Virus record (IMG/VR): IMGVR_UViG_3300012942_000120
Span: 1-27,040 of that record
DNA: 27,040 nt
Source of the DNA: a virus
Taxonomy: Duplodnaviria > Caudoviricetes
Reading direction: 5' to 3' (one strand)
Below, piece after piece: positions 1,851-27,040 of the stretch. How positions within the stretch are numbered: position 1 is the first letter of the stretch; each line of letters begins with the position of its first letter. The notes under the pieces are model-generated. The model did not search any database and was not told where the DNA came from. It saw nothing but the letters and a program-made list of their open reading frames with translations. A program made the position numbers and the translations under genes.

Positions 1851-1856
1851 TGTGCG

Positions 1857-5455: not shown

Positions 5456-5909
5456 TCTGAACCTCGGTCAATGCAGACGCCAACATATCAACTATCGTCT
5501 GAAGCGCTTGCTGGGTCTTGGCATCGACGGCCGGCCGGAAAAATGGGTGAGCAGCGGCATGCGAATTGCCATGTTCAGCCTGATACCCATCTTCGACCAG
5601 AAGACCGTAAAACGCGTCGCGCCCTATAACTATGCTATACGTCTGAAGACGCCCAGCAACGCTCGAATTCTCCGCATCATGGAAAATGATAATGTTTTTC
5701 TTGAGGGTGCCAGGCGGATACACAGTGCCACTTCTCTTATGCGACTTCAGGCCAATTGGCGCGCGTAATTTTATTTCACCCATGATGACGCGCGCACCAG
5801 CGACTGTCGCCTTCCGGAGCGTCGACTCGCTGGCGACGTCGGTCATCTGCTCGAGCAACTCCCCGAAGCCAGTCGGGTTACTGATCGTCGCCGATACACC
5901 AGCCGCCAT
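5448..5909 (-). CDS. HK97 gp10-family tail completion protein
   Basis: LRKATVAGARVI...RAP...GTLKKNI...AFYGLLVEDG...AHPFFRPAVD matches the HK97-gp10-like pattern. Confidence 0.8.
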   Translation of the reverse strand: MAAGVSATISNPTGFGELLEQMTDVASESTLRKATVAGARVIMGEIKLRAPIGLKSHKRSGTVYPPGTLKKNIIIFHDAENSSVAGRLQTYSIVIGRDAFYGLLVEDGYQAEHGNSHAAAHPFFRPAVDAKTQQALQTIVDMLASALTEVQNG

Positions 5910-5933
5910 TTTCCACCTATAGGGTTCGACACA

Positions 5934-6332
5934 TTACCGCCTGCGTCGTTTGACCTTGAATTTCTTGCCGTCGCCTTGGTTCAGATCGACGCCGAATACC
6001 GCCAGCGCGACGAACTTGGCCTGATCCTTTGGATCTTCAAATAAAATCGGCTTGCTCGACGCCGGCTCTTCAATCCACGGCATGAAATCTGTCGGCCTGA
6101 AGGGATCAGGCTTCGCCTTGGCATTGCGGTTCACGTTTGCAATCAGGGCCGCAAGCTGCCCCATTCGCATGTCTGCTATGCGTTCGCCAAACGGTTCGAT
6201 CCGGTAATACGCCATCCAGTACGCCAGCTCGTCACTATCAATCGCCCGTTTTGCATGGGCGATCGACTTATGCCCGAGCGCCAGCGTCAGGCGGTGCCAG
6301 AAGAGTCGCTCTGGATGGCTTCGGAGTTTTTT
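5934..6332 (-). CDS. Tail assembly chaperone, gpT portion (reached by -1 frameshift from gpG)
   Basis: Frame overlapping the gpG 3' end reads KKLRSHPERLFWHRLTLALG...ELAYWMAYYRIEPFGERIADMRMGQLAALIANVNR...DFMPW, typical of gpT/DUF4035-like proteins. Confidence 0.8.
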   Translation of the reverse strand, partial: KKLRSHPERLFWHRLTLALGHKSIAHAKRAIDSDELAYWMAYYRIEPFGERIADMRMGQLAALIANVNRNAKAKPDPFRPTDFMPWIEEPASSKPILFEDPKDQAKFVALAVFGVDLNQGDGKKFKVKRRRR

Positions 6333-6661
6333 TCTGCATCCTCGACCGCCTTCTGGCCGAGACCGTTGATGCGCTGGCACTCCAACCCGATTTTGCGCAC
6401 CAACTCTGCGTGACTCTTCCGCAATACGTCGACCTCATCGGGAGCGAACATCGGCGTACCGTCTTCATTGACGACGGTGGCCGCCACGAGCGCGGAAAAA
6501 TAGACGCTGTCGGTAAGTCCTTGGTCTTGAACAACTTTCTGAAACGCATCGCGGTCATATCCGCTCATCACGCGAATGCGAAGCGTGCCATCGAGACCAT
6601 TCACCGAGGTATCCTCGGTGCGGGTAGCGACGGCGGCCAACAACTGCTCTTTCGTCAGCAT
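6287..6661 (-). CDS. Tail assembly chaperone gpG
   Basis: 124 aa directly after the tail tube gene. MLTKEQLLAA...IRVMSGYDRDAF...VVNEDGTPMF...AEKN, ending at a slippery site. Confidence 0.85.
   Translation of the reverse strand: MLTKEQLLAAVATRTEDTSVNGLDGTLRIRVMSGYDRDAFQKVVQDQGLTDSVYFSALVAATVVNEDGTPMFAPDEVDVLRKSHAELVRKIGLECQRINGLGQKAVEDAEKNSEAIQSDSSGTA
6326..6332 (-). other. Programmed -1 ribosomal frameshift slippery site A AAA AAC
   Basis: Minus strand reads GCA GAA AAA AAC TCC near the end of gpG, an X XXY YYZ heptamer. A -1 shift enters the gpT frame. Confidence 0.85.
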
Positions 6662-6664
6662 CGA

Positions 6665-7096
6665 TTACCCCCCCACTGCCGGCGTGACTTCAATGTCGCC
6701 GGTAATTTTGATGACAACGGTTCCTTTCACGACTGCGTCGACGGCCGAGGTGATTGGAAAGCTCTTCACGTATGCGTCGAACGCGATCGTCGAGCCGTCG
6801 CTAAGCGTCGCCTGATACGGAGCAACAACTCCCGATTTCTTATCGGCGAGCAGCGCTGCGTGGCTCGGCTCCGACATGTTGATGTTGATGTCGAACGAGA
6901 GCGTGTCCCAATCCTGTAGACCGGGCCTCGATTCCTTCGCGGTGCTGTCGAAGTCCGTCACGTCGATGTCGCTTGCGGAGCCAGAGAACCCGTTGAAATT
7001 CGACATATTCTTAATCGGCGCCCACACCGGTGCCTCCGTGGTTCCCGTGTTTTTTGCGAGCTTCGTGCCCTGCGAGCTAATTGCGGTGCTGGTCAT
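6665..7096 (-). CDS. Major tail (tube) protein
   Basis: MTSTAISSQGTKL...SDIDVTDFDSTAKESRPGLQDWDTLSF...FDAYVKSF...IKITG, a siphovirus tail tube pattern in the expected position. Confidence 0.9.
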   Translation of the reverse strand: MTSTAISSQGTKLAKNTGTTEAPVWAPIKNMSNFNGFSGSASDIDVTDFDSTAKESRPGLQDWDTLSFDININMSEPSHAALLADKKSGVVAPYQATLSDGSTIAFDAYVKSFPITSAVDAVVKGTVVIKITGDIEVTPAVGG

Positions 7097-7100
7097 GGTT

Positions 7101-7454
7101 TCACTCCTGATACCAGATGGAAAAGTCTTGCCGACTGCCGTAAAGCTTCGTGTCGTCCTCGTAGACGCTCACCGGCGCGCCAATCGGCACGCCGCGAACA
7201 GGCGCGGCAGTCAGCGCAGCGCGCACCTGTTGAATGATGGTTGCCGCTTCGGCCCGCGTGGCTGCCCACACAGCGACCTGCATGCGGCTGTTTTGCAGCG
7301 TGTCCGCGCCGTCGAATGTCGTTTCGTCGACGCCTCCTACGGATTGATAGACGATGTACGGCTTGACCGCAGTGGCCGGCGCGACGTCGGGATACACGCG
7401 ACCGCTGGCAAGTGCCTTGATGGCGCTGTAGGTGACGGATTCAGCGCTAGCCAT
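7101..7454 (-). CDS. Tail terminator (DUF3168/HK97 gp11-like)
   Basis: From ATG 7454: GRVYPDVAP...PYIVYQSVGG...RMQVAVWAATRAEA...YEDDTKLYGSRQDFSIWY. Confidence 0.85.
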   Translation of the reverse strand: MASAESVTYSAIKALASGRVYPDVAPATAVKPYIVYQSVGGVDETTFDGADTLQNSRMQVAVWAATRAEAATIIQQVRAALTAAPVRGVPIGAPVSVYEDDTKLYGSRQDFSIWYQE

Positions 7455-7800
7455 CGTTGCCGCCCTCTGTGCACGCGAGATCGGTGCGCTCGCGCCCGGC
7501 ATAGTCCGGCAGCGCCTTCTGAATGTTGAAAATCGCATCGTCGACCGGCTGGCCGTCGACAAACTTCAGCAGCACTGCTCGCATGCCGTTGTCGATGTCG
7601 GTACGGAACCGAATGCGGATGCTGGCCGTTGCGCTGGCAACATCAGTGTCAGAGACGAGCGATTCCTTGCCGGTTAGCATGCGCACGTTGCACCAGACGG
7701 TAGCGACCTCGGTCCAGCCCTCGATCGGCTGGCCGAGATCATCGACACCGCCGCCGTTGCGCTCGATGCGCATGCGCCGATTGAGATCGCCCGCGCGCAT
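7447..7800 (-). CDS. Head closure/head-tail adaptor (SPP1 gp16-like)
   Basis: From ATG 7800: MRAGDLNRRMRIE...DDLGQPIEGWTEVATVWCNV...IRIRFRTDIDNGMR. The ORF-track upstream extension overlaps other genes. Confidence 0.88.
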   Translation of the reverse strand: MRAGDLNRRMRIERNGGGVDDLGQPIEGWTEVATVWCNVRMLTGKESLVSDTDVASATASIRIRFRTDIDNGMRAVLLKFVDGQPVDDAIFNIQKALPDYAGRERTDLACTEGGNDG

Positions 7801-8144
7801 CAGACACCCGGCACGATGCGATGCGGTCGCAGCAGCGTCCGCGCGTTGAACGGCAGCTCGACCAACGTTCCGACGGACGAATCCTCGCGATTCGCATACA
7901 GCTCCGCCGTCGATTTGAGAATCGCTGCCTTGATCGCGCCGTTCACGACCATCGGATTGTCGCCGGCCGTGCCCGCTGTAACAGCGGCGTCGAGCGCATC
8001 TTGATCCTCGAAGACCTGCCGATTCAGATAGTCGATCGCCGACTGCGTCGCGCCGTCGAGCAGAGCCTGCACGACATCGTCCTCGACGCCTGTGTCCTGC
8101 CGCAAGAAGCCAAGCGCCAGACTGAGATCGACAAGCGCCATCAT
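7800..8144 (-). CDS. Head-tail connector (HK97 gp6-like)
   Basis: LRQD..EDDVVQALLDGA...YLNR...IKAAIL...LYANRE...LLRPHR. Confidence 0.88.
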   Translation of the reverse strand: MMALVDLSLALGFLRQDTGVEDDVVQALLDGATQSAIDYLNRQVFEDQDALDAAVTAGTAGDNPMVVNGAIKAAILKSTAELYANREDSSVGTLVELPFNARTLLRPHRIVPGV

Positions 8145-8309
8145 TTACTTCGGGGCCGGCGACGGCTTTTTGGCCGGCGAACCTTCGAGCGCATCCTTCT
8201 CGCGCGCGGCAGCTTCGAGCTCCGACGGACATTCGTCGCCGGATTTGAATTCCTTCGGGTAGATCTCGCCCTGCGGGACACCCTTGAACGGCTTCGTGAA
8301 CTTCGGCAT
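8145..8309 (-). CDS. Small hypothetical protein downstream of the capsid gene (54 aa)
   Basis: ATG 8309 with a GAGGA RBS. MPKFTKPFKGVPQGEIYPKEFKSGDECPSELEAAA... Confidence 0.7.
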   Translation of the reverse strand: MPKFTKPFKGVPQGEIYPKEFKSGDECPSELEAAAREKDALEGSPAKKPSPAPK

Positions 8310-8318
8310 GGTTTCCTC

Positions 8319-8352
8319 TAAAAAAAGAAGGGGCGTCGCAAGGACGCCCCTC
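8319..8352 (-). terminator. Intrinsic terminator after the major capsid gene
   Basis: Minus strand GAGGGGCGTC-CTTGC-GACGCCCCTT followed by C and a T run. Confidence 0.8.
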
Positions 8353-8380
8353 AACCCCCACCCACTGACGGAGATGCGAT

Positions 8381-9664
8381 TTACTCTGCGGCCGCCGCGA
8401 TCTTCAGTGCACGCATCGGTTCCGGGTTGAGCAGGCCGCCGCCTACGCGCTTTGTCGTGTAGAACAGCACGTACGGCTTCGCCGTGTACGGGTCACGCAG
8501 CACGCGCACGCCGACGCGATCGACGATGAGATACGTCTGCTGGAAATCGCCGAAAAGGATCGGCGTAGAGTTCGCCGCGATGTCCGGCATATCGGGCACC
8601 TCCGTGACCGGATAGCCCGCGAGCGTCGCCGGCTGCCCGGCGACATACGACGGCTGCCACAGATAATTGTTCTGGCCATCTTTCAGTTTGCGCACCGATC
8701 GCTGCGTATTGCGGTTCATCGTGAAGCGAGCGTTGCCGGTGAACGCGCTCGGCAGGTCATAGATCAGATCGATGATGCCATCCGACGTGATGTCTGCCGC
8801 CGCCCCACTGAGTACCGTCCCGATGGCTCCGAACGGATGCGCTGCGTCATTCGCTGCGCCGTCGACATAGGTCAGAATGCCGGTGGGCTTTTTCGTGCCA
8901 TCGCCAGACACGAAGGCGAGGCCCTCCTGCTTGGCGAATTCCGTCTGTACCTCACCGGCCAGCCACGTTTCGAGGTCGATCTCGCTGTCGTCGAGAATGC
9001 CCTGCGTGGCCGCCGGGTTGGCGTAGATCTCGCCCGAGCCGAACGCGAGCGACGCGAAAGTGCCTGTGTTCGTCTGCGGACGTGCGTCCGTCTCGCCGAC
9101 CCAGCCGCTCGCGGTGCCCCCCAGATTGAACAGCTTCGAGAAGCCAGCCTTCGACACCGGCTGCACCCGACACAGCTGACGCATCGGCGAGATGAGCACG
9201 AGCTTATTCGTGATCGTACGATCCCATTCGATAGGCGTCAGGTAGCCTCCCTGCTCGTCGGCGCCCTTGTTGAGTGCGGCGTTGATGTCCCCTTTCTTCA
9301 CATGCGCCTTGAAGGCGTCCGTGTATTCGGCATCACGCAGCGACGTACCGCCCTTACCGCTCATTTCGAGGGAGGCCATTTTGATGCTGTGCTCGTCGAG
9401 CGCCTTCTGAAACTCGTCCAGATCGGCCCCGATCTTTTCCACTTTTGCGGTGATGTCGGCAGCCGGCAGCCCGGCCTTCAGGGCATCGAGTTGCTTCGTG
9501 TTCTCGGCCTTGAACTGTTCGAATGCTCGGTTGACGCCTTCGACGAGCGCCTTCACGTCGCTTCCGCCTGCGTCTGCACGTACCGAGACGATGCCACGCG
9601 GCACAGCACCTGCAGTTCCCGCCAGGGTTGCCGCGAGCGCGGAGATGAAAAGCTTCTTGCTCAT
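8381..9664 (-). CDS. Major capsid protein, HK97 fold
   Basis: 427 aa. N-terminal coiled-coil delta-like region, then GGYLTPIEWDRTI, WVGE, LKDGQNNYLWQP, FGDF, RDPYTAKPYVLFYTTKRVGG. Confidence 0.97.
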   Translation of the reverse strand: MSKKLFISALAATLAGTAGAVPRGIVSVRADAGGSDVKALVEGVNRAFEQFKAENTKQLDALKAGLPAADITAKVEKIGADLDEFQKALDEHSIKMASLEMSGKGGTSLRDAEYTDAFKAHVKKGDINAALNKGADEQGGYLTPIEWDRTITNKLVLISPMRQLCRVQPVSKAGFSKLFNLGGTASGWVGETDARPQTNTGTFASLAFGSGEIYANPAATQGILDDSEIDLETWLAGEVQTEFAKQEGLAFVSGDGTKKPTGILTYVDGAANDAAHPFGAIGTVLSGAAADITSDGIIDLIYDLPSAFTGNARFTMNRNTQRSVRKLKDGQNNYLWQPSYVAGQPATLAGYPVTEVPDMPDIAANSTPILFGDFQQTYLIVDRVGVRVLRDPYTAKPYVLFYTTKRVGGGLLNPEPMRALKIAAAAE

Positions 9665-9668
9665 GAAT

Positions 9669-10511
9669 TTATCCTTGAAAAGCGTTAATTAGGTTCTGCA
9701 GCGAGACTGCAACGTCGTCGCCAGCGCCCGGCATGGCGTGTTCCGCGGCAGCGCCCGGCTTGCCGTCGAATAGGGCCTTGAACGCTTCGCGGCGCGCGCT
9801 ACGTGAATATCCAGCGCTCGCCATTGAAGCTTCCACGAGCGCCATTGCCTTACGCTGGGCGCTCGCATTCGAATCTTTCGCGATTTGCGCGCTCTCCAGC
9901 AGGCCACTCGCGAAACCATCCGCAACGGCCTGCTCGGCGCCAATCCACGATTCCTTGTCCATCAGTGCAACGGCCTCATCCTGCGTGATGCCCGCGCGCT
10001 GGGAATACACCTTCGCCATCGCGGCGTCGAACGGCGCGAGAATTTCCGACGCCTGCGCAAGGTCGTGCCGATTGCCGATAGCGACCGTCCACGCGTTGTG
10101 AATCATGAGGAAAGCGCCGTCACCCATCAGGATTTCGTCGGCCGCCATCGTGATCACCGAAGCCGCTGACGCCGCAAGCCCGATGACGTTGACCGTCACT
10201 TTCGCCTTGTGCTCGCGCAGCAGGTTGTAAATCGCGACGCCCTCAAAAAAATCGCCACCGGGAGAATTGATGTTCACCGTCACATCCCGGGCGCCGATAT
10301 TGCGCAGCGCTGAGCTGACGCGTTTTGCAGTGACCCCGGTGCCTTCCCAGTTGTCGCCAATCGAGTCGTAAATCGAGATCGATGCGACATCGTCAGAAGA
10401 CGCTGCCCGGGCGGCCGGCTCCCATCGGGCCAACGCATCAGGTCGCAAATCGAATTGCGCCTTATTGAGCCGGTGATCGGCTCGGATTTCAGGCAGTCTG
10501 AGCAGGCTCAT
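9669..10511 (-). CDS. Prohead maturation protease, ClpP (S14) type
   Basis: INSPGGDFFEGVAIYNLL, GLAASAASVI (catalytic Ser), LMIHNAW (His). Lies between portal and capsid. Confidence 0.93.
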   Translation of the reverse strand: MSLLRLPEIRADHRLNKAQFDLRPDALARWEPAARAASSDDVASISIYDSIGDNWEGTGVTAKRVSSALRNIGARDVTVNINSPGGDFFEGVAIYNLLREHKAKVTVNVIGLAASAASVITMAADEILMGDGAFLMIHNAWTVAIGNRHDLAQASEILAPFDAAMAKVYSQRAGITQDEAVALMDKESWIGAEQAVADGFASGLLESAQIAKDSNASAQRKAMALVEASMASAGYSRSARREAFKALFDGKPGAAAEHAMPGAGDDVAVSLQNLINAFQG

Positions 10512-11772
10512 CGCTGGTCCCCTTCGGTTTCTGGGTCATTGGGTTGCGCAGCGCATCAGTCTGCGGATCGTCGGATTTCGGCAAGTCGGACAGTTCTCGA
10601 ACTTCGTTTTGAGACATCCACGGCGCCTGTCCACCGGCACCGAGCGCCTTCGAGAAGAACGACGCCTGGTCGTTGAGCGTGCCGCGCAGCAGCGCACCCT
10701 CGTTGAACTTGTATTGCAATAGGCCGAGTTGACTGTCGGGAATGAAGCTGCGCGCAGCAGCCTGTTCCCAAGACACAAACCAGTGCGCAAGGCCGTATTG
10801 AATGAAAAATATCGCGAGCTGCTCGATGCCACTGCCCCAGCTAGTGTCATCCATCATCAATAGAGGTCGTGGCACGCCGTACATGCGAGCGACCTCTTCA
10901 ATCTGATGGTTGCGTGTCTCGATCTGCTGTGCAGATACCGCAGTGGCGGTGAATTGCTTCGCAGTTGCGCCCTCTTCCAGCAACATCCAGCGGCCGGCGT
11001 TGTCGGCGCCAGCATAATTCGTGTCGAGTGATCCGCGCATACGCCCGTAGGCGTTGTCTGAAAGCTCTTTCGGCACCTCAATCGCGCCGCCCGCCATCAC
11101 GCCAGTTCGGAATGTGCGCGACGCAGCTCGCTCTGCCTGCTCGGCGAGCTCTAAGCTTTCCCTCGATAGGCGTATGCGAGAGATACCGCATACTCCGTCG
11201 AGCGACAGATCACGCAAATGGAACACATCGCGCGCCGGCAGCGTGATCATGCCGTCGCCCGGCGTCGTATAGTCGTAGACCATCTGCCAGGCAGCCGTGA
11301 GGCGCGGCTTCGTCGAGCCGCGATCCATCGGAATCAGCCGGACTGGACGATTACCCGTCCATATGACACGCGCGAAGGATTGCCCGTCGAGCAACGCGCG
11401 AAGTTGCATCAGACTCTTGAATTCAATCGGCGTCTGCCAGTCGTTTGGCTTGTATTTGAGCAACCTGTGCGCCGGATTATCGATCTGCACCCGCTTCTGA
11501 TCGTCGCTGCTTTGCAGATTCAGCGGCAGCATGCCGATTGCTTGGGAAATCAAAGTCACGCAGCGCAGCACAGCCATATTGCGTAACGCGTGCATGCCGC
11601 GCGGGTCATACCCATCGATTTCCCCTCGGCGGATGTACTCGAGCAAACGCGGATCATCCATGCCGGTGAATGTGTCGCCGCCGGAAGGGATTTCAGCGCG
11701 GATCGATGGCTCCTGAGAACGAGTTTGGGCCTCCGGCTGACTACCTCGCCGGAAGAAATCGAGCAAACTCAT
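10489..11772 (-). CDS. Portal protein, HK97 family
   Basis: From ATG 11772 (GAGGTGA RBS). AVLRCVTLISQAIGMLPL, KPNDWQTPIEF, DVFHLR, EEVARMYGVP, MSQNEVR. Confidence 0.95.
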   Translation of the reverse strand: MSLLDFFRRGSQPEAQTRSQEPSIRAEIPSGGDTFTGMDDPRLLEYIRRGEIDGYDPRGMHALRNMAVLRCVTLISQAIGMLPLNLQSSDDQKRVQIDNPAHRLLKYKPNDWQTPIEFKSLMQLRALLDGQSFARVIWTGNRPVRLIPMDRGSTKPRLTAAWQMVYDYTTPGDGMITLPARDVFHLRDLSLDGVCGISRIRLSRESLELAEQAERAASRTFRTGVMAGGAIEVPKELSDNAYGRMRGSLDTNYAGADNAGRWMLLEEGATAKQFTATAVSAQQIETRNHQIEEVARMYGVPRPLLMMDDTSWGSGIEQLAIFFIQYGLAHWFVSWEQAAARSFIPDSQLGLLQYKFNEGALLRGTLNDQASFFSKALGAGGQAPWMSQNEVRELSDLPKSDDPQTDALRNPMTQKPKGTSDEPAQTA

Positions 11773-11779
11773 TCTCACC

Positions 11780-13513
11780 TCAAAGGAATCGGATGCCGCG
11801 CGACTCATACACGGACGGCCCTTGAGCCGGCGGGTTGAGCGCCATCAGCGATACCGCATCGAAAATTGCCATGAGCGGATCGATTTTCCCCGTTCCGCTG
11901 GCCTGTTTTGTGATGTTCACCGCGTTGCCGACCGGCACTACACGCGCGTTACCGACGGCCCATGCCATCAATGGCTGCCCGCCGTGAATGAGGATGCCAT
12001 CGGGCGCCTGACCGTCCGCGAGACGACGCCCGCTCGCCGCAGCGATGCGACGCTCGGCGGTCTTGATTGCGCCGGAAAGCTTCCAACCCTGCGAAATGCC
12101 GATTACCTTCTCTTGTGGCACCTTTGCTTCGGCCAGCGCGTCGAGAACTCCCCCGATCCCGGCCGGATCAGCGCCTACCTGATATAGGAGACCGGCTTTC
12201 TCGACCGTCGCGACGATCGCGGCGACATCTGAAACATCGTCGCCGATCAGCTCCACGACGGTCAGATCGCCGTCCTTTTCGAAGTCGCGCAAGCGCTCGG
12301 CGATCTCCTTTCTGCGGTCAAACACAGAGGGATGCGCCCAAGCATGCGTCCAGGTTAGCCAGTTCCGCGTCCCCGTCTCGCGCCCGACAAGCGCAAGGCC
12401 AAGCAAGTCATCCAAACCGCCGCCGTCGACGCCAACCGCAATAACTTCGCACCGCGCGATCAACTCCTCGACAGTCAGTTTCGGTGCCTTCGCGGCGGCC
12501 TCCCAGAAGTCAGCTCCGGCCCAGCGGTCGCTACGCAATGCGAGGCCGATCTCGACGTTTCCGTGCTTCGCCAGGAAGCCTCGAAGCGATGCCTCGCCCT
12601 CTTCGCTCGCCTTGCGGTGCTCGCGTACCAGAAAGGCTTCGTCGACGGAGTAACCAAGGTTCGGATTTACCATCCCGAGGTTTTCGACGCGCAAATGCCC
12701 CCTTGACTTGACCATCTCCGGCGGATGCTCGTAGATGATCGGGAGAAACTGCGGATCGTGAATCTTGCCGTCGCGAACATCGCGCGCGTATTGCAGCTTT
12801 TCCCTGAAAACACCGGCCGGCGGATCATCGCTCTGGGTTGTGATCCAGATAACGAAACCTTCTGGGCGCGACGCTAAACCACCGAGCGCCTCGCGCAGCA
12901 TTTCTTTCGCCCCAGCCTGCTTACCAAAGAGCCAAAGTTCTTCAATCAGCGTGCCAACGCTTTTTTTGCCGGCCGCCGTGTTTGGGTCGGCTGCGATAAC
13001 CTTTAGCGTCGCATTTTTCTCGCGATGCGTAAGCGTTTTTATATGCGACTGGACATGAATGATGTCCGCGAGCTGGTCATCCTCTTCTGGCTCTTCGAAC
13101 GCCACCATATCCTTCGCGGGGCCGAAGCTGTTGTTCGCGACTTCAAGTGTCGGCGCAAGAATGGTGAACTCCGCCGACTGACGCCAATTGCGGATCAGGC
13201 AGGTGAGCATGATCGACGCCGCCAAGCCAGACTTGAAGTTTTTTTTCGGCAGCATCACAAACCATTCCGTGATGAGTCGGCGCCCGCTCGCAGCGTCGTA
13301 CGCGCCGAACACTGTCGCCGCGAGATCGAAAATCCACTGCCCCGACGCCTCGCCAATAGTCGGGCTGCCGGGCGCATCGACGATACGCAGCGAGCGCATT
13401 ACCTCAAGTCCTCGCTCGGCCTCTTCCGGAAAGATCGGCGCTGGAATAATTGACCGCCCTTCCCGGAGCCGCTCAGCCCAATCAGGGCATGCGGTCGTCC
13501 ATTCTGGTGTCAC
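11780..13513 (-). CDS. terL: Terminase large subunit
   Basis: 577 aa. Walker A-like PKKNFKS, Walker B-like TLIEE, ITTQS coupling motif, nuclease VGVDGGGLDDL and C-terminal KIDPLMA. Confidence 0.95.
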   Translation of the reverse strand: MTPEWTTACPDWAERLREGRSIIPAPIFPEEAERGLEVMRSLRIVDAPGSPTIGEASGQWIFDLAATVFGAYDAASGRRLITEWFVMLPKKNFKSGLAASIMLTCLIRNWRQSAEFTILAPTLEVANNSFGPAKDMVAFEEPEEDDQLADIIHVQSHIKTLTHREKNATLKVIAADPNTAAGKKSVGTLIEELWLFGKQAGAKEMLREALGGLASRPEGFVIWITTQSDDPPAGVFREKLQYARDVRDGKIHDPQFLPIIYEHPPEMVKSRGHLRVENLGMVNPNLGYSVDEAFLVREHRKASEEGEASLRGFLAKHGNVEIGLALRSDRWAGADFWEAAAKAPKLTVEELIARCEVIAVGVDGGGLDDLLGLALVGRETGTRNWLTWTHAWAHPSVFDRRKEIAERLRDFEKDGDLTVVELIGDDVSDVAAIVATVEKAGLLYQVGADPAGIGGVLDALAEAKVPQEKVIGISQGWKLSGAIKTAERRIAAASGRRLADGQAPDGILIHGGQPLMAWAVGNARVVPVGNAVNITKQASGTGKIDPLMAIFDAVSLMALNPPAQGPSVYESRGIRFL

Positions 13514-14022
13514 ACGCCTTTCCCGCCAGAAGCAACTAGCTTGGGAGGCGCTGCCGACGCGAAGCGACCGCCGCCCGCCTTCTTGGCAGCTTCCCTCTGA
13601 GCATCTTTCTTGCCGCCCTCGCCGGGCTTTTGATGCATGAACGGCATCAGCGCCTTCGCTGCGTCAACGCGAAGCTTGGGCTCGGTGCTCTGGTCATTCA
13701 TGGCGGCGATAAGGAACTGCTTCGGGTCGTTGAACGTCAGGATGGAGTCGAGATCGAAACCAGCCGCTACTGCAGCCTTCGTGACCGCCACCGCGTCAGC
13801 GGCAGGAGCGCCCTTCGCCGCCTTTAAGGCCGGCGCAGGCTTCGCTCCAGCTTTCTTGCGATGCTGAGCGAGGTAAGCCGCAACGTCCTTGTCTTTAACA
13901 AGGCGAGATCCGGCGGCCGATGCAGTCGCCGAACTGTAACCGGCGGCGATTGCCGCGTCCTTATTGGACTTCCCGGCTAAAACAGCATCGGCAAATGCCC
14001 GCTTTTTGCTGTTAAAAGCCAT
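13510..14022 (-). CDS. terS: Terminase small subunit
   Basis: From ATG 14022: HTH-like KRAFADAVLAGKSNKDAAIAAGYS...AGSRL, then LRVDAAKALMPFMH. Overlaps the terL start (GTGA). Confidence 0.88.
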   Translation of the reverse strand: MAFNSKKRAFADAVLAGKSNKDAAIAAGYSSATASAAGSRLVKDKDVAAYLAQHRKKAGAKPAPALKAAKGAPAADAVAVTKAAVAAGFDLDSILTFNDPKQFLIAAMNDQSTEPKLRVDAAKALMPFMHQKPGEGGKKDAQREAAKKAGGGRFASAAPPKLVASGGKGV

Positions 14023-14039
14023 TAACAAAATCCTCAAAC

Positions 14040-18910: not shown

Positions 18911-19911
18911 GCTGCCTCCGCGTGCGCAACCTGTTCGCGCGGAACGTCGTTGAAGTACGCGTAGAGCTGGATGTACACGCTCTCGGTGTCCTTGACGGAG
19001 CGCAACATTTCCTCCATCCATTCGCCAGGACCCGCGGCCTTGTACACGCGCGCCTTGAATCGCTGGAAGTGCTCGTCTGGCCGTTTCTCGATTCCAAGCT
19101 GTTTGGCGCGCGAGTCGATACCGCTCACCGACTTCCACCAGTCGGGTACAATCGACTGACCGGACGATACGGCAGGCGAATCGGCGCGGAGCGGAAACAG
19201 GCCTGTCCAGCCGCGCAACACCGCTTCGTCGATGCACGCCGCCGGCTCGTGGCCTAGCTCGCGCAGCTTCGCAAGTCGTCGGACAGACACACTCGCCGCC
19301 GGCCTCGTCCATGGTGCCGATTTCTCGGCAGCCTTCGCCTCCCGGTGTTCACACCAGTCGTGCCAGGCAGATCGTGGTAGCCAATCGGGTAAATCGAATT
19401 CGCGAAGTTCGACATGCAACGCAACTCGCGGCGCACGCCGCGCAGGTTGACGGTTCTCTGACGGTTCCATGGTGGTTCCTGACGAGTCGGGTGCAAAGCT
19501 ATTGCACCCTTTAGCGTCGTCATTTGCACCCTTTGTTGCGCCGTTTGCACCCTTTTCGTCGCCGTTTGCACCCTTCTCATTCGGTGCAGAATCTGCGCCC
19601 TTTGAGCCATCTGAAATGGGTGCAAGGTCTGCGCCCTTTATCCAGTCTGGATTGATGCGATATTCGCGGGCACGTCCACGTCCGCCACCTTGGTTCGCAA
19701 CAAGGATCAGCCAGCCCCGTTTGAGCATTCGTTTGATTTGGTATTGCACCGCGCGCTCAGACTGGCGCGTTTTTGCCGCCATCGTTTCGATGCTGGGAAA
19801 GATATGCGTGCCGTCGTCGTCTGCGTAATCTGCCAACTTCAAAGCCAGATTGAGCTCGCCACCACCTTCGGGGTATCGGTCCCACACCTTGTCCATTACC
19901 TTGATGCTCAT
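18907..19911 (-). CDS. Replication initiator (lambda O-like, N-terminal HTH)
   Basis: LKLADYADDDG..IFPSIETMAAKT..SERAVQYQI, internal iteron-derived KGAN repeats, C-terminal LPDWL...W..W..HR...GWTGLF. Confidence 0.85.
   Translation of the reverse strand: MSIKVMDKVWDRYPEGGGELNLALKLADYADDDGTHIFPSIETMAAKTRQSERAVQYQIKRMLKRGWLILVANQGGGRGRAREYRINPDWIKGADLAPISDGSKGADSAPNEKGANGDEKGANGATKGANDDAKGCNSFAPDSSGTTMEPSENRQPARRAPRVALHVELREFDLPDWLPRSAWHDWCEHREAKAAEKSAPWTRPAASVSVRRLAKLRELGHEPAACIDEAVLRGWTGLFPLRADSPAVSSGQSIVPDWWKSVSGIDSRAKQLGIEKRPDEHFQRFKARVYKAAGPGEWMEEMLRSVKDTESVYIQLYAYFNDVPREQVAHAEAA
19489..19638. repeat. Iterons of the putative replication origin
   Basis: TTGCACCCTT at 19502, 19524, 19545, 19566 (21-22 bp period), CTGCGCCCTT at 19593 and 19629, and inverted GGTGCA halves at about 19490, 19583 and 19619. 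Confidence 0.85.
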
Positions 19912-22183: not shown

Positions 22184-22271
22184 AAATGCTCCGTGGTTAT
22201 AGGGGCGAGGACACCGGCTTTCGCCTGTAGACTTGGCAGTTCTCACACAACCACGATCTACGGGGATCCTC

Positions 22272-22541
22272 ATGGAAGACAAAATCGAAAAACTCGTTTC
22301 CGCTGTCGAGAAGATGCAGCCAATACTGCAATACCTCGTCGCAGAGAACGCCGCGATGGCTGCCATCATCCGGTCGCTCGGCACTGCCAATCGGGACAAT
22401 GCTGCATTTCAAGCCGCACTCAAGACAGAGGCAGAAATCCGCAATGTTCGGCAACTGAACAGCGCTATGTCCGACGACGACATCGCTGCATTCAAGAAAT
22501 CTCTGGCGTCGTTGCTGCCGAAGCAACCTCTCGAGCTTTAA
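22272..22541 (+). CDS. Hypothetical helical protein (moron, antisense to the PR operon)
   Basis: GGGGA RBS, MEDKIEKLVSAVEKMQ..., 89 aa. Confidence 0.65.
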   Translation: MEDKIEKLVSAVEKMQPILQYLVAENAAMAAIIRSLGTANRDNAAFQAALKTEAEIRNVRQLNSAMSDDDIAAFKKSLASLLPKQPLEL

Positions 22542-22765: not shown

Positions 22766-23005
22766 TTAGCAAGATGGATTCGCGCGTGCGGCAACTTCCA
22801 CGGTTTGCCGGTCGCCGTTCTTTTCAGAAAGTACGGCGTCGTGCAGCCGCTTGAGTTTTGACATCACCTCGTAGGACACCCGCTTACCCCGTCGCCCTGT
22901 GTGGATCGCGGACACGGTGGACTGATCGACGCCACTCAGGCGCTCAATCTCCATCTGTGTCAATCCGCGCTGCATCAGGTCGGCAATCATCAGTTGAGCG
23001 TTCAT
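22766..23005 (-). CDS. cro: Cro-like HTH repressor
   Basis: 79 aa, GLTQMEIERLSGVDQSTVSAI. Divergent from cI. Confidence 0.85.
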   Translation of the reverse strand: MNAQLMIADLMQRGLTQMEIERLSGVDQSTVSAIHTGRRGKRVSYEVMSKLKRLHDAVLSEKNGDRQTVEVAARANPSC

Positions 23006-23012
23006 GGACACG

Positions 23013-23041
23013 AGAATATTACATTGGGACTTGGATAACAA
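23013..23041 (-). promoter_or_regulatory. PR promoter
   Basis: TTGTTA, 17 nt, TATTCT, then 7 nt to the cro ATG. Overlapped by operators. Confidence 0.65.
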
Positions 23042-23078
23042 GTCCCAATGGAATGGCGCGATCAATTACGATTGCAAT
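23018..23078. promoter_or_regulatory. OR: three 14-bp operators plus the PRM -10
   Basis: ATTACATTGGGACT (23018-31), AGTCCCAATGGAAT (23041-54), ATTACGATTGCAAT (23065-78). Consensus ATTmCA-NN-TGkAAT. TACGAT at 23067-72 lies 6 nt before the cI ATG. Confidence 0.8.
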
Positions 23079-23780
23079 ATGAAAACTTTGGCGGAAAGAG
23101 TTAAGGCGCGCCGCCTGGAGCGGGGCATGACGCAGGGCGAGCTCGCAAAAGCCGCGGGCGTATCGCAATCGACGATCGCACACGTGGAGTCCGGCCGAAA
23201 TGAGGGTACGAAGCACATCGCCAAGATTGCTCGCGCCCTTAATGAGACCACCGAATGGCTCGACGGACCGGCAAAAAATTCTAACGCTCGATCAAGGCCC
23301 GCAAAGTCCGGTAATTCCGACGTTCAGCCTCCATCACCTTTGCAGTATCCTGTCAGCACAAAGAATGTGCGTCATGTGTTCGTCATAGGGCGCGCTCAAG
23401 CAGGACTACCTGAGAGAATTTGGACTGACGGGGACTATCCAGTGGGGGCAGCAAACGAGTACGCGGAAATAGCCACTGGCGATAGCCAGGCCTTTATAGT
23501 TCCGGTGGTTGGCGACTCAATGTCTCCCAAATACGAGCCGGGTGAGTTTGCGCTTGTCGAACCGGAGACTCCGCCAGAAGTCGGCGAGGACGTTCTCGTG
23601 AGGCTCGCGGATGGGCGGACGCTCTTAAAGCGTCTTTATCGGCGCTTGGGCGCGGTGATCGTCCTGAAGAACCTGAACCCCTCTAAGGCTGAGGAATTTT
23701 CGTTCGAGCCGAACGAGGTCACGTGGATGTATTACGTTGCTCACCCCGTGCCAGCACGAAAAATAAAAATGCGCATGTGA
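23079..23780 (+). CDS. cI: CI-like repressor (XRE HTH plus S24 autopeptidase)
   Basis: MKTLAERVKARRLERGMTQGELAKAAGVSQSTIAHVESG, AQAG cleavage site, GDSM (Ser), LKRL (Lys). Confidence 0.95.
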   Translation: MKTLAERVKARRLERGMTQGELAKAAGVSQSTIAHVESGRNEGTKHIAKIARALNETTEWLDGPAKNSNARSRPAKSGNSDVQPPSPLQYPVSTKNVRHVFVIGRAQAGLPERIWTDGDYPVGAANEYAEIATGDSQAFIVPVVGDSMSPKYEPGEFALVEPETPPEVGEDVLVRLADGRTLLKRLYRRLGAVIVLKNLNPSKAEEFSFEPNEVTWMYYVAHPVPARKIKMRM

Positions 23781-23894: not shown

Positions 23895-24545
23895 ATGACA
23901 AAAACAGCTATTGCCGTTTGCCTCGGGGCGGTGGTCCTTTCGGGCTGCTCGATGGCATGGGGCGTTCATCAGTCACTCCCGTATGCACCGCAAGTAAGCG
24001 GCGCACTCAGTACATCTGGGCATGTGGATGTGTATCGCGACGGCGATCGACCGCGGCGGCCCATCATTCTCATTGCAAAGTTGGGCGCGAACGGCAACGG
24101 GTATGCCACAGACGACACGCTCGTGAAAACGCTCGTCAAGGAAGCGCAGAAGGTGGACGCGGACTGTCTCGTCATCACCAATAGCTCGGTCTCAAGGGAT
24201 GAAACCGTTGGATCCTATGGGGGCGGCCTGCTCTTCACAAGCCAGATCAAGCGCCCTCACCTATATGGCATAGCTTGCAAATATTCGAAAGTGATCGCCG
24301 GCTTGAATGCAGATAAGAACGGGCTGGTGGGTTACGTTCCGAGCGGCACCCCAGCCGCCCGCGCGGGCATCGTCGAAGGGGACAAATTGCTGGCCCTAAA
24401 TGGTGAGGCAATCACAAGTTCGCCCTACGTCGCCGAGCGGGAGGTCTCGCTCAAAAGCCCTGGCGACAAGGTGACAGTTGATTACCTGGATAAAAATGGG
24501 GAAAAGCACACCACAGTGCTGACTCTCGACGCCGCTCCGCAATAA
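23895..24545 (+). CDS. PDZ-domain lipoprotein (immunity-region moron)
   Basis: Signal peptide with lipobox LSGC. C-terminal PDZ (GTPAARAGIVEGDKLLALNG...PGDKVTV). N-terminal domain with LVKEAQKVDADCLV. Confidence 0.8.
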   Translation: MTKTAIAVCLGAVVLSGCSMAWGVHQSLPYAPQVSGALSTSGHVDVYRDGDRPRRPIILIAKLGANGNGYATDDTLVKTLVKEAQKVDADCLVITNSSVSRDETVGSYGGGLLFTSQIKRPHLYGIACKYSKVIAGLNADKNGLVGYVPSGTPAARAGIVEGDKLLALNGEAITSSPYVAEREVSLKSPGDKVTVDYLDKNGEKHTTVLTLDAAPQ

Positions 24546-24569
24546 GCAGCCCTCGCACCACGCTCATCG

Positions 24570-24594
24570 AAGCCCCGCCAGTCGGGGCTTTTTC
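24570..24594 (+). terminator. Intrinsic terminator ending the cI-lipoprotein unit
   Basis: AAGCCCCG-CCAGT-CGGGGCTT-TTT. Confidence 0.85.
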
Positions 24595-24645: not shown

Positions 24646-24687
24646 ATTACATATGGACTTGACCAATCAACATTCCATTTGTAATAT
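24646..24687 (+). promoter_or_regulatory. PL promoter with two OL operators
   Basis: TTGACC (24659-64), 17 nt, TAATAT (24682-87). Operators ATTACATATGGACT (24646-59) and ATTCCATTTGTAAT (24672-85) match the OR consensus. Confidence 0.85.
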
Positions 24688-24753
24688 CCCTCTCACGCAC
24701 TCACCGAACCCCTCGGCGGATGCTGACAGGAGATAGGGATGCAGGACTGGAGG

Positions 24754-25077
24754 CTACTGACGATCGAGCACGGTCGACGAATCATTGAGGCCGAGTACAG
24801 CGAAGGTCGCTTTACGGGATTCACTTCCCGGGCAAAGCAGGATGACCAAGTCGCCGCCCTTGGCTTGAGAGAATGGTTCGGCGATCTGCTTCGCAGCTTT
24901 GCGGGGCTTGTCGACGGGCGCGATATGAATGGCTCCGCTCACATCCAGATTATCAAGGTCTCCGATGTCCCCGAGGGAGCGACCGTCACGAACAACGACC
25001 GTGAGCGTCTTCCCATCGACGATGCACGTGAATCGGTCGCGGTGCGGTCCAAAGTGTCTTGTGCTGGTGATTTTCAT
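24754..25077 (-). CDS. Hypothetical protein (alternative: antiparallel plus ORF 24739-25146)
   Basis: The minus frame reads like a globular alpha/beta protein (KGGDLVILLCPG). Start uncertain (25077-25155). The plus ORF has an AGGAG RBS but shadow-like composition. Confidence 0.5.
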   Translation of the reverse strand: MKITSTRHFGPHRDRFTCIVDGKTLTVVVRDGRSLGDIGDLDNLDVSGAIHIAPVDKPRKAAKQIAEPFSQAKGGDLVILLCPGSESRKATFAVLGLNDSSTVLDRQ

Positions 25078-25283
25078 TTTGATCTGGATTTGCTTGGTCT
25101 CATGGTCAGAAATGGGCGCAAGGTCAGCCTGTATTTCCACGGTTGACCATATCACACAGTTTTGAGCGGGAGCGTTTCGGCAAGAAGTCGTCGCGGCGAC
25201 TCTAAATAGCCCGTATCCAGTCTCCGTAGTATGGGCGAAACGTTCCCGCTGAAAGCTGTGAATAACAGATTTTTAGGATAACT

Positions 25284-25436
25284 ATGAACCGGGTTGCTTG
25301 TGATAACGCCCTGCTCGCCTCGTGTGATCGGCTTCATGGTCGTGCCGTCCGCGCGATCGGCGTGATGCTCATGTGTGGCGTCGCGATCGGCTGTGTGTGG
25401 TTCCTCTGCGTCGCATGGCGCGCAGGGGTTCTGTGA
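25284..25436 (+). CDS. Small single-TM protein (50 aa)
   Basis: AGGA RBS. MNRVACDNALLASCDRLHGRAVRAIGVMLMCGVAIGCVWFLCVAWRAGVL. Confidence 0.65.
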   Translation: MNRVACDNALLASCDRLHGRAVRAIGVMLMCGVAIGCVWFLCVAWRAGVL

Positions 25437-25561
25437 TGCGCTCGGCGATCAGGGTCTGGCTCGGCGCGGCCGTTGCAGTGGCGATCTATCTGCTCGCATG
25501 CTCGTTGCTGGATCAGCAAGCCGCCAAAGTCGAACGCTGCAGCGTCGTTCGCTGCACCTGA
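25436..25561 (+). CDS. Small single-TM protein (41 aa)
   Basis: TGATG-coupled. MRSAIRVWLGAAVAVAIYLLACSLLDQQAAKVERCSVVRCT. Confidence 0.65.
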   Translation: MRSAIRVWLGAAVAVAIYLLACSLLDQQAAKVERCSVVRCT

Positions 25562-25580
25562 ATCTTGAAAGGAGTCAACC

Positions 25581-25751
25581 ATGCACATCCTGTTTCCATG
25601 CTTAATAGTCCTCATTGTTTTGGTCGTTGGGTTCTCGATGGGATTCGTAGCGGGGTCCTTCTGGACTGCAGTTGCGCGGGTTGATGACTTCGGCCGGGAT
25701 CGTAGCTCGATGATGGACGACGCAGCACCCTATCCGCGCGCGTGGGAGTGA
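25581..25751 (+). CDS. Small single-TM protein (56 aa)
   Basis: AAGGAG RBS. MHILFPCLIVLIVLVVGFSMGFVAGSFWTAVARVDD... Confidence 0.65.
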   Translation: MHILFPCLIVLIVLVVGFSMGFVAGSFWTAVARVDDFGRDRSSMMDDAAPYPRAWE

Positions 25752-25755
25752 ATGC

Positions 25756-26055
25756 ATGGGCTGCCATGTCCGTTGCCGCCATTGCGAGGCACGCCGCTGT
25801 CTTAAAAGAAACCCGGAGCAGTACGAGCGCTGCCCCCCCTGCCGCGTGTGCGGGCGAACGAATTGGCGTGTGGATCGGTGGATGAATCGACGCAATACGA
25901 CGCTGACAGCGTGCGCGTGCGCCGGTTACTGGTTTCCACATCGGCGCGGGTCGCTGTTCTGCTGGCATCGAGCAGATGGTTCAAATCGATTCCCCGGTGA
26001 TACGGATTTTGCAGACCGCAACTACGAGCCCGAATTGAGCGACGCAGTTGCATAG
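25756..26055 (+). CDS. Cys/His-rich putative Zn-finger protein
   Basis: RCRHC...PCRVCG...WRVD...CACAGYWFPHRRGSLFC. Confidence 0.75.
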   Translation: MGCHVRCRHCEARRCLKRNPEQYERCPPCRVCGRTNWRVDRWMNRRNTTLTACACAGYWFPHRRGSLFCWHRADGSNRFPGDTDFADRNYEPELSDAVA

Positions 26056-26150
26056 CCGAGTAGTACCGCGGCGCGGGGAGGCTCCTGTGTTGCGGCGTGT
26101 TTGGCCGGCGCCCGTCCGGGCCAGTCCTTTTTCATCCCATAGGAGAAGTC

Positions 26151-26504
26151 ATGCAACAAATTCAGATTCCACCGCTCGCCGAGGGTGAGGTCTATATCGG
26201 TGCCATCGGTAACAAGACCGGCGATGTCGAGCACATCATTCTTCTGCCCGGCGACAACGATGGAGCGACATGGCAGGCGCAAATGGATTGGGCGAAGTCG
26301 CTCGGTGGCGACCTCCCGAATCGCATTGAACAGGTGATGCTGTGGTCCGCTCATCGCGACCTGTTTCAGAAGGAATGGTACTGGAGCAACGAGCTCGATG
26401 AAGACGGCTGGGCCTGGTGTCAGGACTTCACCCGCGGCTACCAGAGCTACGGCGGTCAGTACGGCGAGTTCCGCGCCCGCGCCGTCCGCAGATTGCCCAT
26501 TTAG
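26151..26504 (+). CDS. DUF1566 (Lcl C-terminal, C-type-lectin-like) protein, putative DGR target 1
   Basis: AGGAG RBS, 117 aa. W..QMDWAKSLGGDLPNRIE...WYWS...AWCQDF..GYQ......EFRARAVRR. Confidence 0.88.
   Translation: MQQIQIPPLAEGEVYIGAIGNKTGDVEHIILLPGDNDGATWQAQMDWAKSLGGDLPNRIEQVMLWSAHRDLFQKEWYWSNELDEDGWAWCQDFTRGYQSYGGQYGEFRARAVRRLPI
26406..26495 (+). repeat. Putative DGR variable repeat VR1
   Basis: 90 nt, 74/90 identical to 26810-26899, with all differences at codon positions 1-2 of NNY codons. Confidence 0.8.
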
Positions 26505-26542
26505 TCGTTTATCAATTCGTAAGCATTCCAAAGGGGATGACG

Positions 26543-26908
26543 ATGCAACAAATCCAGACTCCGCCGCCCGCCAAAGGCGAGATCTATCTTGGCGGCTTCG
26601 TCGACGCAAACGGCGACGTCATGCATACGATCCTGCTGCCGGGCGACAACAAGCCGGCCACGTGGCAACAGCAGATGGAGTGGGCGAAAAGCATCGGCGG
26701 CGATCTGCCGACGCGCGCCGAGCTGGTCATCGCGTACGAGAGGCATCGCGATCAGTTCAAGAAAGCCGCCTACTGGTCGAACACGCCCGACACGGATCCG
26801 GGCTATTCCGGCTGGGCCTGGTGTCAGCGCTTCAGCATCGGCTACCAGTACGGCAACGCTCAGAGCTACGAGTTCCGCGCCCGCGCCGTCCGCAGATTGT
26901 CGATTTAA
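26543..26908 (+). CDS. DUF1566 protein, paralogue, putative DGR target 2
   Basis: AAGGGG RBS, 121 aa. WAKSIGGDLPTRAE...AYWS...AWCQRF..GYQ......EFRARAVRR. Confidence 0.88.
   Translation: MQQIQTPPPAKGEIYLGGFVDANGDVMHTILLPGDNKPATWQQQMEWAKSIGGDLPTRAELVIAYERHRDQFKKAAYWSNTPDTDPGYSGWAWCQRFSIGYQYGNAQSYEFRARAVRRLSI
26810..26899 (+). repeat. Putative DGR variable repeat VR2
   Basis: Second copy of the 90-nt repeat (see VR1). Confidence 0.8.
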
Positions 26909-26937
26909 TCCTTCAGCCATTTACAACGGAGCATCGC

Positions 26938-27040
26938 ATGACGATCACGCTTGAACAGATCAAGGCGGATCACGCGCGCATCGGCGCGGTGATCGAAGCC
27001 TTCCGGAAACAGCAGCGCGCGACCGAGTATCGCGTCGCCG
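26938..27040 (+). CDS. Hypothetical protein, 5' part (possibly a third target gene)
   Basis: GGAG RBS. MTITLEQIKADHARIGAVIEAFRKQQRATEYRVA, runs off the window. Confidence 0.6.
   Translation, partial: MTITLEQIKADHARIGAVIEAFRKQQRATEYRVA

What the first reader, a model, noticed from the sequence alone, without database searches (positions are those of the whole stretch)
24659..27040. The hypervariable proteins sit in the CI-repressed early (PL) operon, not in the tail module
Seen: the targets are stand-alone domains of about 120 aa with no signal peptide, TM segment or virion-anchoring region. They lie downstream of PL/OL, more than 20 kb from the tail genes and on the opposite strand, and a further co-oriented gene starts at 26938. 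Established: the classic phage DGR diversifies a receptor-binding tail protein (Mtd). Inference: here diversification produces a panel of small intracellular binders expressed right after infection or induction, for example adaptable anti-defence or host-takeover factors, or binders against competing phages. I know of no functional characterisation of such a system.
Basis: inference. Interest (0 to 1): 0.85.

Follow-up and report, generated by a model that had tools for sequence, protein, structure and literature searches.

The report
Phage DGR diversifying tiny early lectins
A soil phage of the Burkholderia type carries three tiny lectin-fold genes with the mutation scars of a targeted-mutation element (a DGR) behind its repressor-bound early promoter instead of in its tail, so they likely act as adjustable binders inside the infected cell; the layout is common and already on record, and what they bind is untested.

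Summary
Observation largely confirmed. The window is a lambda-like temperate phage. ORFs 26151-26504 and 26543-26908 are stand-alone C-type-lectin (DUF1566/Lcl_C) domains; their 3' ends differ almost only at adenines of relatives' templates (15 of 16, P 7e-9). The gene cut at 26938 is a third target (152 aa in a longer assembly). They lie behind a promoter overlapped by two operators matching OR. Template, Avd and reverse transcriptase are not in the window; 70 of 78 relatives with room have them right after the third target, but about 1 in 10 has lost them, so activity in this phage is not shown. The cassette occurs in phages with unrelated tails, which argues against a virion role. Corrections: three targets, eleven variable codons, tail genes may be nearer on the circular map, and a terminator-like hairpin precedes the cassette (delayed-early). 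The element is catalogued (Wu 2018; phage Magia 2021), and this scan already reported it six times on other DNA. The anti-defence role is plausible and untested.

The parts
22766..23005 (-). Cro-like HTH gene
   Evidence: PHROG 6831 E 6e-19; listed ORF 22766-23065
23018..23078 (.). OR: three 14-bp pseudo-palindromic operator sites (23018, 23041, 23065)
   Evidence: consensus was picked by eye from OR and OL together
23079..23780 (+). CI-type repressor (HTH_3 + Peptidase_S24)
   Evidence: Pfam E 1e-13 and 2e-14, PHROG 4 E 6e-41
23895..24545 (+). PDZ-domain lipoprotein downstream of cI, followed by a strong hairpin and T run at about 24569-24594
   Evidence: Pfam PDZ; hydrophobic N-terminus with LSGC; hairpin -16.3 kcal/mol
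24646..24687 (+). PL promoter (-35 at 24659, -10 ending 24687) overlapped by OL sites at 24646 and 24672
   Evidence: related contigs in other runs keep the -35 with different operator letters (loose ends)
24739..26055 (+). small co-oriented early ORFs (135, 50, 62, 56, 99 aa), two with PHROGs of unknown function
25163..25255 (+). conserved structured RNA-like element in the PL transcript; candidate antiterminator or ribozyme-like RNA, not an Rfam member
26101..26132 (+). terminator-like hairpin and T run directly before the first target
   Evidence: -10.2 kcal/mol in the window, weak and not listed by the simple scan; such a hairpin precedes the cassette in 39 of 73 relatives against 1 of 73 before avd; annotated as terminator in Magia
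26151..26504 (+). target A, 117-aa CLec (DUF1566) protein; VR1 at about 26406-26495
26543..26908 (+). target B, 121-aa CLec (DUF1566) protein; VR2 at about 26810-26899
26938..27040 (+). 5' part of target C (152 aa: N-terminal helix plus CLec with its own VR), cut by the contig end
   Evidence: first 34 residues identical to P0130, which lies on a 44,756-base contig like targets A and B; sister contig L019 continues it as a CLec; model pLDDT 91

Best explanation
The three genes are targets of a diversity-generating retroelement and likely encode small cytoplasmic binding proteins that are made early in lytic growth and would neutralise or redirect fast-changing host proteins, most likely anti-phage defence proteins, by binding them. 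Shown: CLec fold, adenine-specific variable regions, position behind a repressor-bound promoter, and in relatives the order targets-avd-TR-RT-integrase. Inferred: when CI leaves OL (infection or induction) the PL transcript reads through the terminator before the cassette, possibly helped by the structured RNA near its 5' end, and so makes the targets, Avd, the template RNA and the RT together during phage DNA replication. The RT miscopies template adenines and rewrites eleven codons in each target independently. B and C are two long-kept scaffolds (different jobs or partners); extra A-type copies are added elsewhere in the same operon. With no catalytic domain, they would work by occupying a partner's surface. 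Odds: DGR targets 0.97; core intact in this phage about 0.85; non-virion early binders about 0.7; ligand is a host defence protein about 0.35.
For: VR1 and VR2 differ at 16 places, 15-16 of them adenines in relatives' templates (hypergeometric P 7e-9). Against sister contig L019: 28 of 52 template-A sites differ, 2 of 116 other VR sites, 38 of 732 outside. 70 of 78 relatives with room have avd and a full-length RT after target C. 148 of 148 in-register VR peptides are distinct, none repeated within a locus. Fold: Lcl C-terminal domain Z 10.0 (B) and 13.4 (C); Mtd Z 6.6 and 8.5. No hydrophobic segment in 238 of 239 homologues at the 1.6 mark. 60 of 85 loci have a repressor, replication, CII, exonuclease or RecT gene in the fetched flank, 72 of 85 that or an integrase; no target on the opposite strand in 85 of 85. 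The cassette is shared by phages with a contractile sheath (14 of 46 records) and with a lambda-type tail L (2 of 46, and the window); Magia, a predicted myophage, has a B protein 75% identical. Scaffolds are constrained: before the VR 11 synonymous to 6 replacement codons (A) and 7 to 5 (B), inside 0 to 10 and 0 to 9; adenines in Gln/Glu codons of the template changed at 5 of 542 sites. B-B 68%, C-C 69%, same-locus B-C 38% identity.
Against: No TR, avd or RT is in the window, and none was tied to this phage: no RT on a 44,756-base contig among the best 120 hits or in 7 clusters opened. About 1 in 10 relatives has lost the core. No expression, localisation or ligand data. No PADLOC match, and nothing in the sequence points to a defence protein as ligand. 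The closest solved folds are extracellular adhesins. The low change at Gln/Glu adenines is partly explained by the RT's lower error rate before G (10.1101/2025.03.24.644984), and the Tyr/Asp/Gly/Ser richness of the VRs matches the RT's own bias (PMC12875486), so neither proves selection for binding. The early position may serve the retroelement (replication-linked homing) more than the proteins.
Confidence: 0.55

Rival explanations
1. Prophage-encoded sensors: the targets are made at low level in the lysogen or on superinfection and bind proteins of competing phages or mobile elements, as proposed for cytoplasmic CLec DGR targets of multicellular bacteria.
For: Cytoplasmic hypervariable CLec sensors are proposed in PMC10907252. 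The proteins lack export signals. The source sample holds several related phages with this cassette.
Against: The genes lie behind an operator-covered promoter and a terminator-like hairpin with only about 20 bases to the start codon, which should silence them in the lysogen; no effector domain is fused and no PADLOC match was found.
Confidence: 0.15
2. Accessory virion adhesins: made early but later attached non-covalently to the particle (perhaps through the N-terminal helix of C), changing host range or adhesion as Mtd does. This is the Magia authors' guess.
For: Most viral DGR targets are structural (10.1101/2020.04.01.020958); the nearest folds are adhesins; C has an amphipathic N-terminal helix, residues 5-23.
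Against: Same proteins at 70-80% identity in phages with unrelated tails; never in the late operon among 85 loci (only the window's and Magia's structural genes were used as queries); A and B have no anchoring domain.
Confidence: 0.12
3. The retroelement rides in the early operon mainly because that is where it is expressed during replication; the mini-targets give little benefit, or in this phage are frozen relics of a lost core.
For: Homing depends on replication direction (PMC12875486); cores are lost in several relatives while targets stay; no core in the window.
Against: Two distinct scaffolds are kept together in 66 loci, extra copies are added, synonymous changes exceed replacements outside the VR, and the source run holds template-like and RT-like contigs.
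Confidence: 0.1
4. Soluble lectins released at lysis that bind capsule, LPS or biofilm sugars, as decoys or to prepare neighbouring cells.
For: Best fold match is the Lcl C-terminal domain, an adhesin domain.
Against: Early rather than late timing; monovalent single domains would bind sugars weakly (general knowledge).
Confidence: 0.08

Closest known systems
DGR of Burkholderia cenocepacia phage Magia (MT701587, genes 44-47 and 57; PMC7883833)
   Same: Short CLec targets, B then C then avd, TR, RT, integrase, downstream of the immunity repressor; B 75% identical; terminator annotated before the first target.
   Different: Magia is a predicted myophage with its extra target right after the repressor region; here a lambda-type tail and three targets in tandem. 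The announcement names two targets and guesses host range; it reports no test.
CLec2, category d1, architecture B1 DGRs of B. cenocepacia H111, B. thailandensis MSMB43 and Ralstonia solanacearum CMR15 (Wu et al. 2018, PMC5758913, Table S1 rows 32-34)
   Same: TG-TG-AVD-TR-RT, DUF1566-only short targets, three targets per element.
   Different: Those rows leave the phage column blank; in the passages I saw the early-operon position is not discussed.
Bordetella phage BPP-1 DGR (Mtd)
   Same: Adenine-specific rewriting of a C-terminal CLec VR; Avd and RT; fold match to 1yu0 (Z 6.6 and 8.5).
   Different: Mtd is one 380-residue tail-fibre tip protein; here three 117-152-residue proteins without anchor in the early operon.
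Clade 5 DGR antigen-sensor candidates of multicellular bacteria (PMC10907252)
   Same: Predicted cytoplasmic hypervariable CLec domains in phage-host conflict, untested.
   Different: Chromosomal, fused to STAND or vWA and effector domains; here phage-borne single domains with no effector.

Membership tests
Diversity-generating retroelement | VR differs from TR almost only at TR adenines | tested here: met
   With relatives' templates, since the phage's own is off the contig: 15-16 of 16 VR1/VR2 differences; 28 of 52 against 2 of 116 versus L019
Diversity-generating retroelement | Own template repeat linked to the targets | tested here: inconclusive
   Absent from the contig; a template-like tail is seen in the source run but not joined
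Diversity-generating retroelement | DGR reverse transcriptase and Avd in the cassette | tested here: inconclusive
   Beyond the contig end; 70 of 78 relatives have both; not tied to this phage
Diversity-generating retroelement | VR at the 3' end of a CLec-fold target, followed by a conserved GC-rich IMH run | tested here: met
Diversity-generating retroelement | DNA hairpin after the VR | not tested
   Only the short intergenic stretches were folded as RNA; Wu 2018 lists 'no' or 'weak' for this group
CLec2 / category d1 targets (Wu 2018) | Short protein made of a DUF1566 domain only | tested here: met
   PF07603 E 9e-4 and 8e-6, below the curated cut-off; homologues named DUF1566 proteins
Lambdoid PL (early left) operon | Promoter overlapped by operators that match OR, next to cI, pointing to the integrase side | tested here: met
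   integrase downstream in 37 of 85 related loci
Lambdoid PL (early left) operon | Targets co-transcribed from PL and repressed by CI | not testable with these tools
   No RNA data; terminator-like hairpin intervenes
Mtd-type virion receptor-binding DGR target | Encoded with the tail genes in the late operon | tested here: not met
   Opposite strand, early region
Mtd-type virion receptor-binding DGR target | N-terminal anchoring or trimerising domains | tested here: not met
   A and B are CLec only; C has one 19-residue helix
Mtd-type virion receptor-binding DGR target | Present in the virion | not testable with these tools
   No proteomics found for Magia, vB_E192a or vB_PL1
Pistol ribozyme (for the RNA at 25163-25255) | P1, junction, P2, six-pair pseudoknot, P3 and cleavage-site GU | tested here: not met
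   25.7 bits against 34.5, E 0.13; only P1 and the A-rich junction align; loop variants break the possible pseudoknot

The most novel reading that the evidence does not exclude
Temperate phages of Burkholderiales use a DGR as an adaptive counter-defence system: a panel of antibody-like intracellular domains, re-randomised each lytic cycle, that evolve to block whichever defence protein a new host carries.
Probability: 0.3. Interest if true: 0.85.

Novelty: new member of a known kind. Interest (0 to 1): 0.42.

Why it matters
Tested phage DGRs change receptor binding. A DGR family that acts on non-virion early proteins would widen what targeted hypermutation is used for, and could be the first evolvable counter-defence device in phages. 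Culturable carriers exist (Magia, vB_E192a, vB_PL1), so the question is directly testable. This window adds one more member, a third target, evidence that the cassette is independent of tail type, and a candidate leader RNA; it does not settle the function.

Tried and rejected
No RNA holder listed. B with C complex prediction: no verdict, score 0.01. First genome-contig scan with the single protein confirmed nothing; the alignment scan worked. Foldseek gave no match at E 0.001 in PDB or BFVD; VIA-align did. Mapping the variable residues on one face could not be done from coordinates: none are returned, and the VR loop of B had pLDDT under 50 at 102-109; in C's better model they fall on a two-strand hairpin and its loops, 121-140. 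Tyr/Gly/Asp enrichment as a sign of selection was rejected: Ser via TCC is depleted while Ser via AGC is not, and the RT's own bias gives this pattern. The synonymous count for target A was out of frame and was redone. PADLOC and NCBIfam gave nothing for the targets. The ESM Atlas gave only hypothetical or DUF1566 clusters. The RNA element is not a Pistol ribozyme.
Full report
Setting. The window is a whole 27,040-base contig of a lambda-like temperate phage: on the - strand tail L, tail M, tape measure, tail tube, capsid, protease, portal and terminase (1-14037), then replication O-like, ParB-like, CII and Cro genes; on the + strand a CI repressor with HTH and S24 domains at 23079-23780. Close homologues of the target proteins come from Burkholderia, Paraburkholderia and kin.

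The promoter. Three 14-base pseudo-palindromes lie between cro and cI (23018, 23041, 23065). A matrix trained on these three ranks 24672 (20.5 bits) and 24646 (18.4) as the best other sites in the window; the next are 26525 (15.0) and 1782 (10.9). The consensus used to pick the training sites was chosen by eye from both regions, so the test is not fully independent. The two sites overlap a -35/-10 pair at 24659-24687, the only match of a stricter pattern on either strand of the window. A strong hairpin with a T run ends the cI-lipoprotein unit just upstream. PL/OL is therefore well supported by sequence; repression by CI follows from lambdoid genetics and is not shown.

The targets. ORFs A (26151-26504, 117 aa) and B (26543-26908, 121 aa) are 63% identical, hit Pfam Lcl_C/DUF1566 weakly and share a 113-base 3' repeat. 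The model of B (pLDDT 81) and of C (pLDDT 91) match C-type lectin folds: Legionella Lcl C-terminal domain Z 10.0, rmsd 4.0, 105 aligned and Z 13.4, rmsd 3.4, 111 aligned; Mtd 1yu0 Z 6.6 and 8.5. No hydrophobic segment is present (hydropathy only). The gene cut at 26938 is a third target: its 34 codons are identical to the start of P0130, a 152-residue CLec protein with its own VR that lies, like A and B, on a 44,756-base contig; sister contig L019 also continues it as a CLec. Only two VR copies lie in the window, none in the tail genes present; the tail-tip genes are off the contig.

DGR signature. The window has no TR, avd or RT. VR1 and VR2 differ at 16 places; 15 or 16 are adenines in each of 15 relatives' templates, P 7e-9 with the L002 template. 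Between the window and L019 (92% identical) 28 of 52 template-adenine sites differ, 2 of 116 other VR sites and 38 of 732 sites outside. In relatives, 42 TR-VR pairs of the first 15 loci gave 516 of 581 mismatches at adenines without filtering. In the larger set, 67 loci gave 174 pairs; 16 with more than two non-adenine mismatches (mostly indels) were dropped, which lowers the background; the other 158 had 1,882 changes at 3,818 adenine sites and 68 at 7,084 other sites. Eleven codons vary; all 148 in-register VR peptides are distinct.

Is the core present in this phage? Of 103 loci fetched, 3 were left out (the window's own contig, one distant phage, one unrelated hit) and duplicates merged, leaving 85. 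Of 78 with room downstream, 70 have avd and a full-length RT; 8 were flagged without, of which L042 is a truncation artefact and L098 a remote target; L083/L084, which have a broken core, were merged away as duplicates. So about 1 in 10 has lost the core. The probable source run holds a template-like tail and RT-like contigs, some at the phage's depth of about 18-21, and a contig that joins the window's B-C spacer to 382 bases of gene C, but several related phages are mixed and nothing joins C to an RT. A search for an RT on the 44,756-base contig was inconclusive. I put an intact core at about 0.85.

Position is a family trait. 60 of 85 loci have a repressor, replication, CII, exonuclease or RecT homologue in the fetched flank, 37 an integrase downstream, 72 either; all targets are on the same strand; homologues of the window's or Magia's structural genes were within the flank only for Magia. 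Most loci have two (38) or three (37) targets. B and C are stable orthologous groups (68% and 69% within, 38% between in the same locus; 66 loci), while extra copies resemble B. Among 46 long viral records chosen from these loci, all carry the family, 14 have a contractile sheath and 2 a lambda-type tail L; the remaining 30 were not typed. Near-identical targets in phages with unrelated tails argue against a virion docking role. A hairpin before a T run precedes the first cassette target in 39 of 73 loci, against 1 of 73 before avd, 0 of 21 before RecT and 0 of 20 before the exonuclease; in the window it is weak (-10.2 kcal/mol). With about 20 bases between it and the start codon, the cassette likely depends on read-through from PL, which makes it delayed-early and quiet in the lysogen (inference).

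Are the proteins functional? Outside the VR synonymous changes exceed replacements (11 to 6 in A, 7 to 5 in B); inside there are only replacements (10 and 9). Template adenines in Gln and Glu codons changed at 5 of 542 sites, against 29-81% in AAC codons; the RT is known to err less before G, so this is only partly selection. The Tyr, Asp, Gly, Ser bias is what the RT makes by itself.

Mechanism. Best reading: small cytoplasmic binders, re-diversified during phage replication, that act by covering a surface of a variable host protein; defence proteins are the most likely class because they differ most between strains and act at this stage (inference from established phage biology; the left operon of lambdoid phages holds gam, ral and kil, recalled). 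Rivals are sensors against other phages, accessory virion adhesins, released lectins, and a retroelement of little benefit. Nothing here identifies a ligand.

Literature. PMC7883833 (main text read) describes the Magia DGR with short targets 47 and 57 and suggests adaptation or host range. PMC5758913 (passages; three supplement rows) catalogues this architecture in B. cenocepacia H111, B. thailandensis MSMB43 and R. solanacearum CMR15 and says half of category d targets are short DUF1566-only proteins. 10.1101/2020.04.01.020958 (passages) says viral targets are mostly structural and excluded targets under 300 bases. PMC10907252 (passages) proposes cytoplasmic CLec sensors. PMC12860723 (passages) describes vB_E192a and vB_PL1 with no DGR mention in the main text. 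PMC11661182, 10.1101/2025.03.24.644984 and 10.1101/2024.10.15.618418 were seen as passages; PMC12875486 as passages and section 7. Searches found no functional study and no paper proposing an early intracellular role; the library lacks most subscription papers, and bioRxiv supplements were closed. This scan's own index lists six earlier findings of the same system in five other genomes; I had found Magia before that call.

Verdict. Interest 0.42.

Noticed in passing
window 25163-25255 (+); L002, L004, L096, L104-L121; phage Bcep176 11404-11435: Conserved structured element in the PL transcript: a long outer stem that covaries (15 of 21 predicted pairs with a change on both sides, 14 sequences) around a five-pair hairpin and a conserved A-rich junction. 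18 viral contigs carry the 17-base core (conservation there is by construction). In L107, L116 and L117 it starts about 50 bases after the same leader that follows PL here. Candidate put-like antiterminator or unknown ribozyme-like RNA.
   Followed up: partly
window 24739-25146 (+): 135-aa ORF with no family, sitting between PL and the structured RNA; a related contig in another run lacks it (joint 24708 to 25185), so it looks like a swappable first-gene slot.
   Followed up: partly
window 23895-24545 (+): PDZ-domain lipoprotein directly after cI and before the terminator, so likely made in the lysogen; possible superinfection-exclusion or envelope moron.
   Followed up: no
window 26525-26538: Operator-like 14-mer (15.0 bits, the third best non-training hit) overlapping the ribosome-binding site of target B; L019 has the same letters; may be chance.
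   Followed up: no
window 26456 and 26860: Both VRs share a T where most relatives' templates have C, and L019 has C; suggests a private template allele copied into both targets.
   Followed up: partly
P0130 C-terminus: Target C of this phage ends two residues earlier than the family consensus (152 against 154 aa), at the IMH end.
   Followed up: no
window 22233-22541 (+): 102-aa ORF on the strand opposite the PR operon, between cro and CII, no family; possible moron.
   Followed up: no
window 19508-19575: Three to four 21-base repeats inside the replication O-like gene, likely origin iterons.
   Followed up: no
L008, L021/L044, L023/L052, L031, L034, L056, L083/L084; L006: Relatives that keep the targets but have a truncated or missing avd, TR or RT; in L006 the template itself has lost many AAC codons.
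   Followed up: partly
OK094664 and OP650936: Two phage records with different stated hosts (Shewanella, Tenericutes) have the same length, 47,902 bases, and a Burkholderia-type cassette; host labels may be wrong.
   Followed up: no
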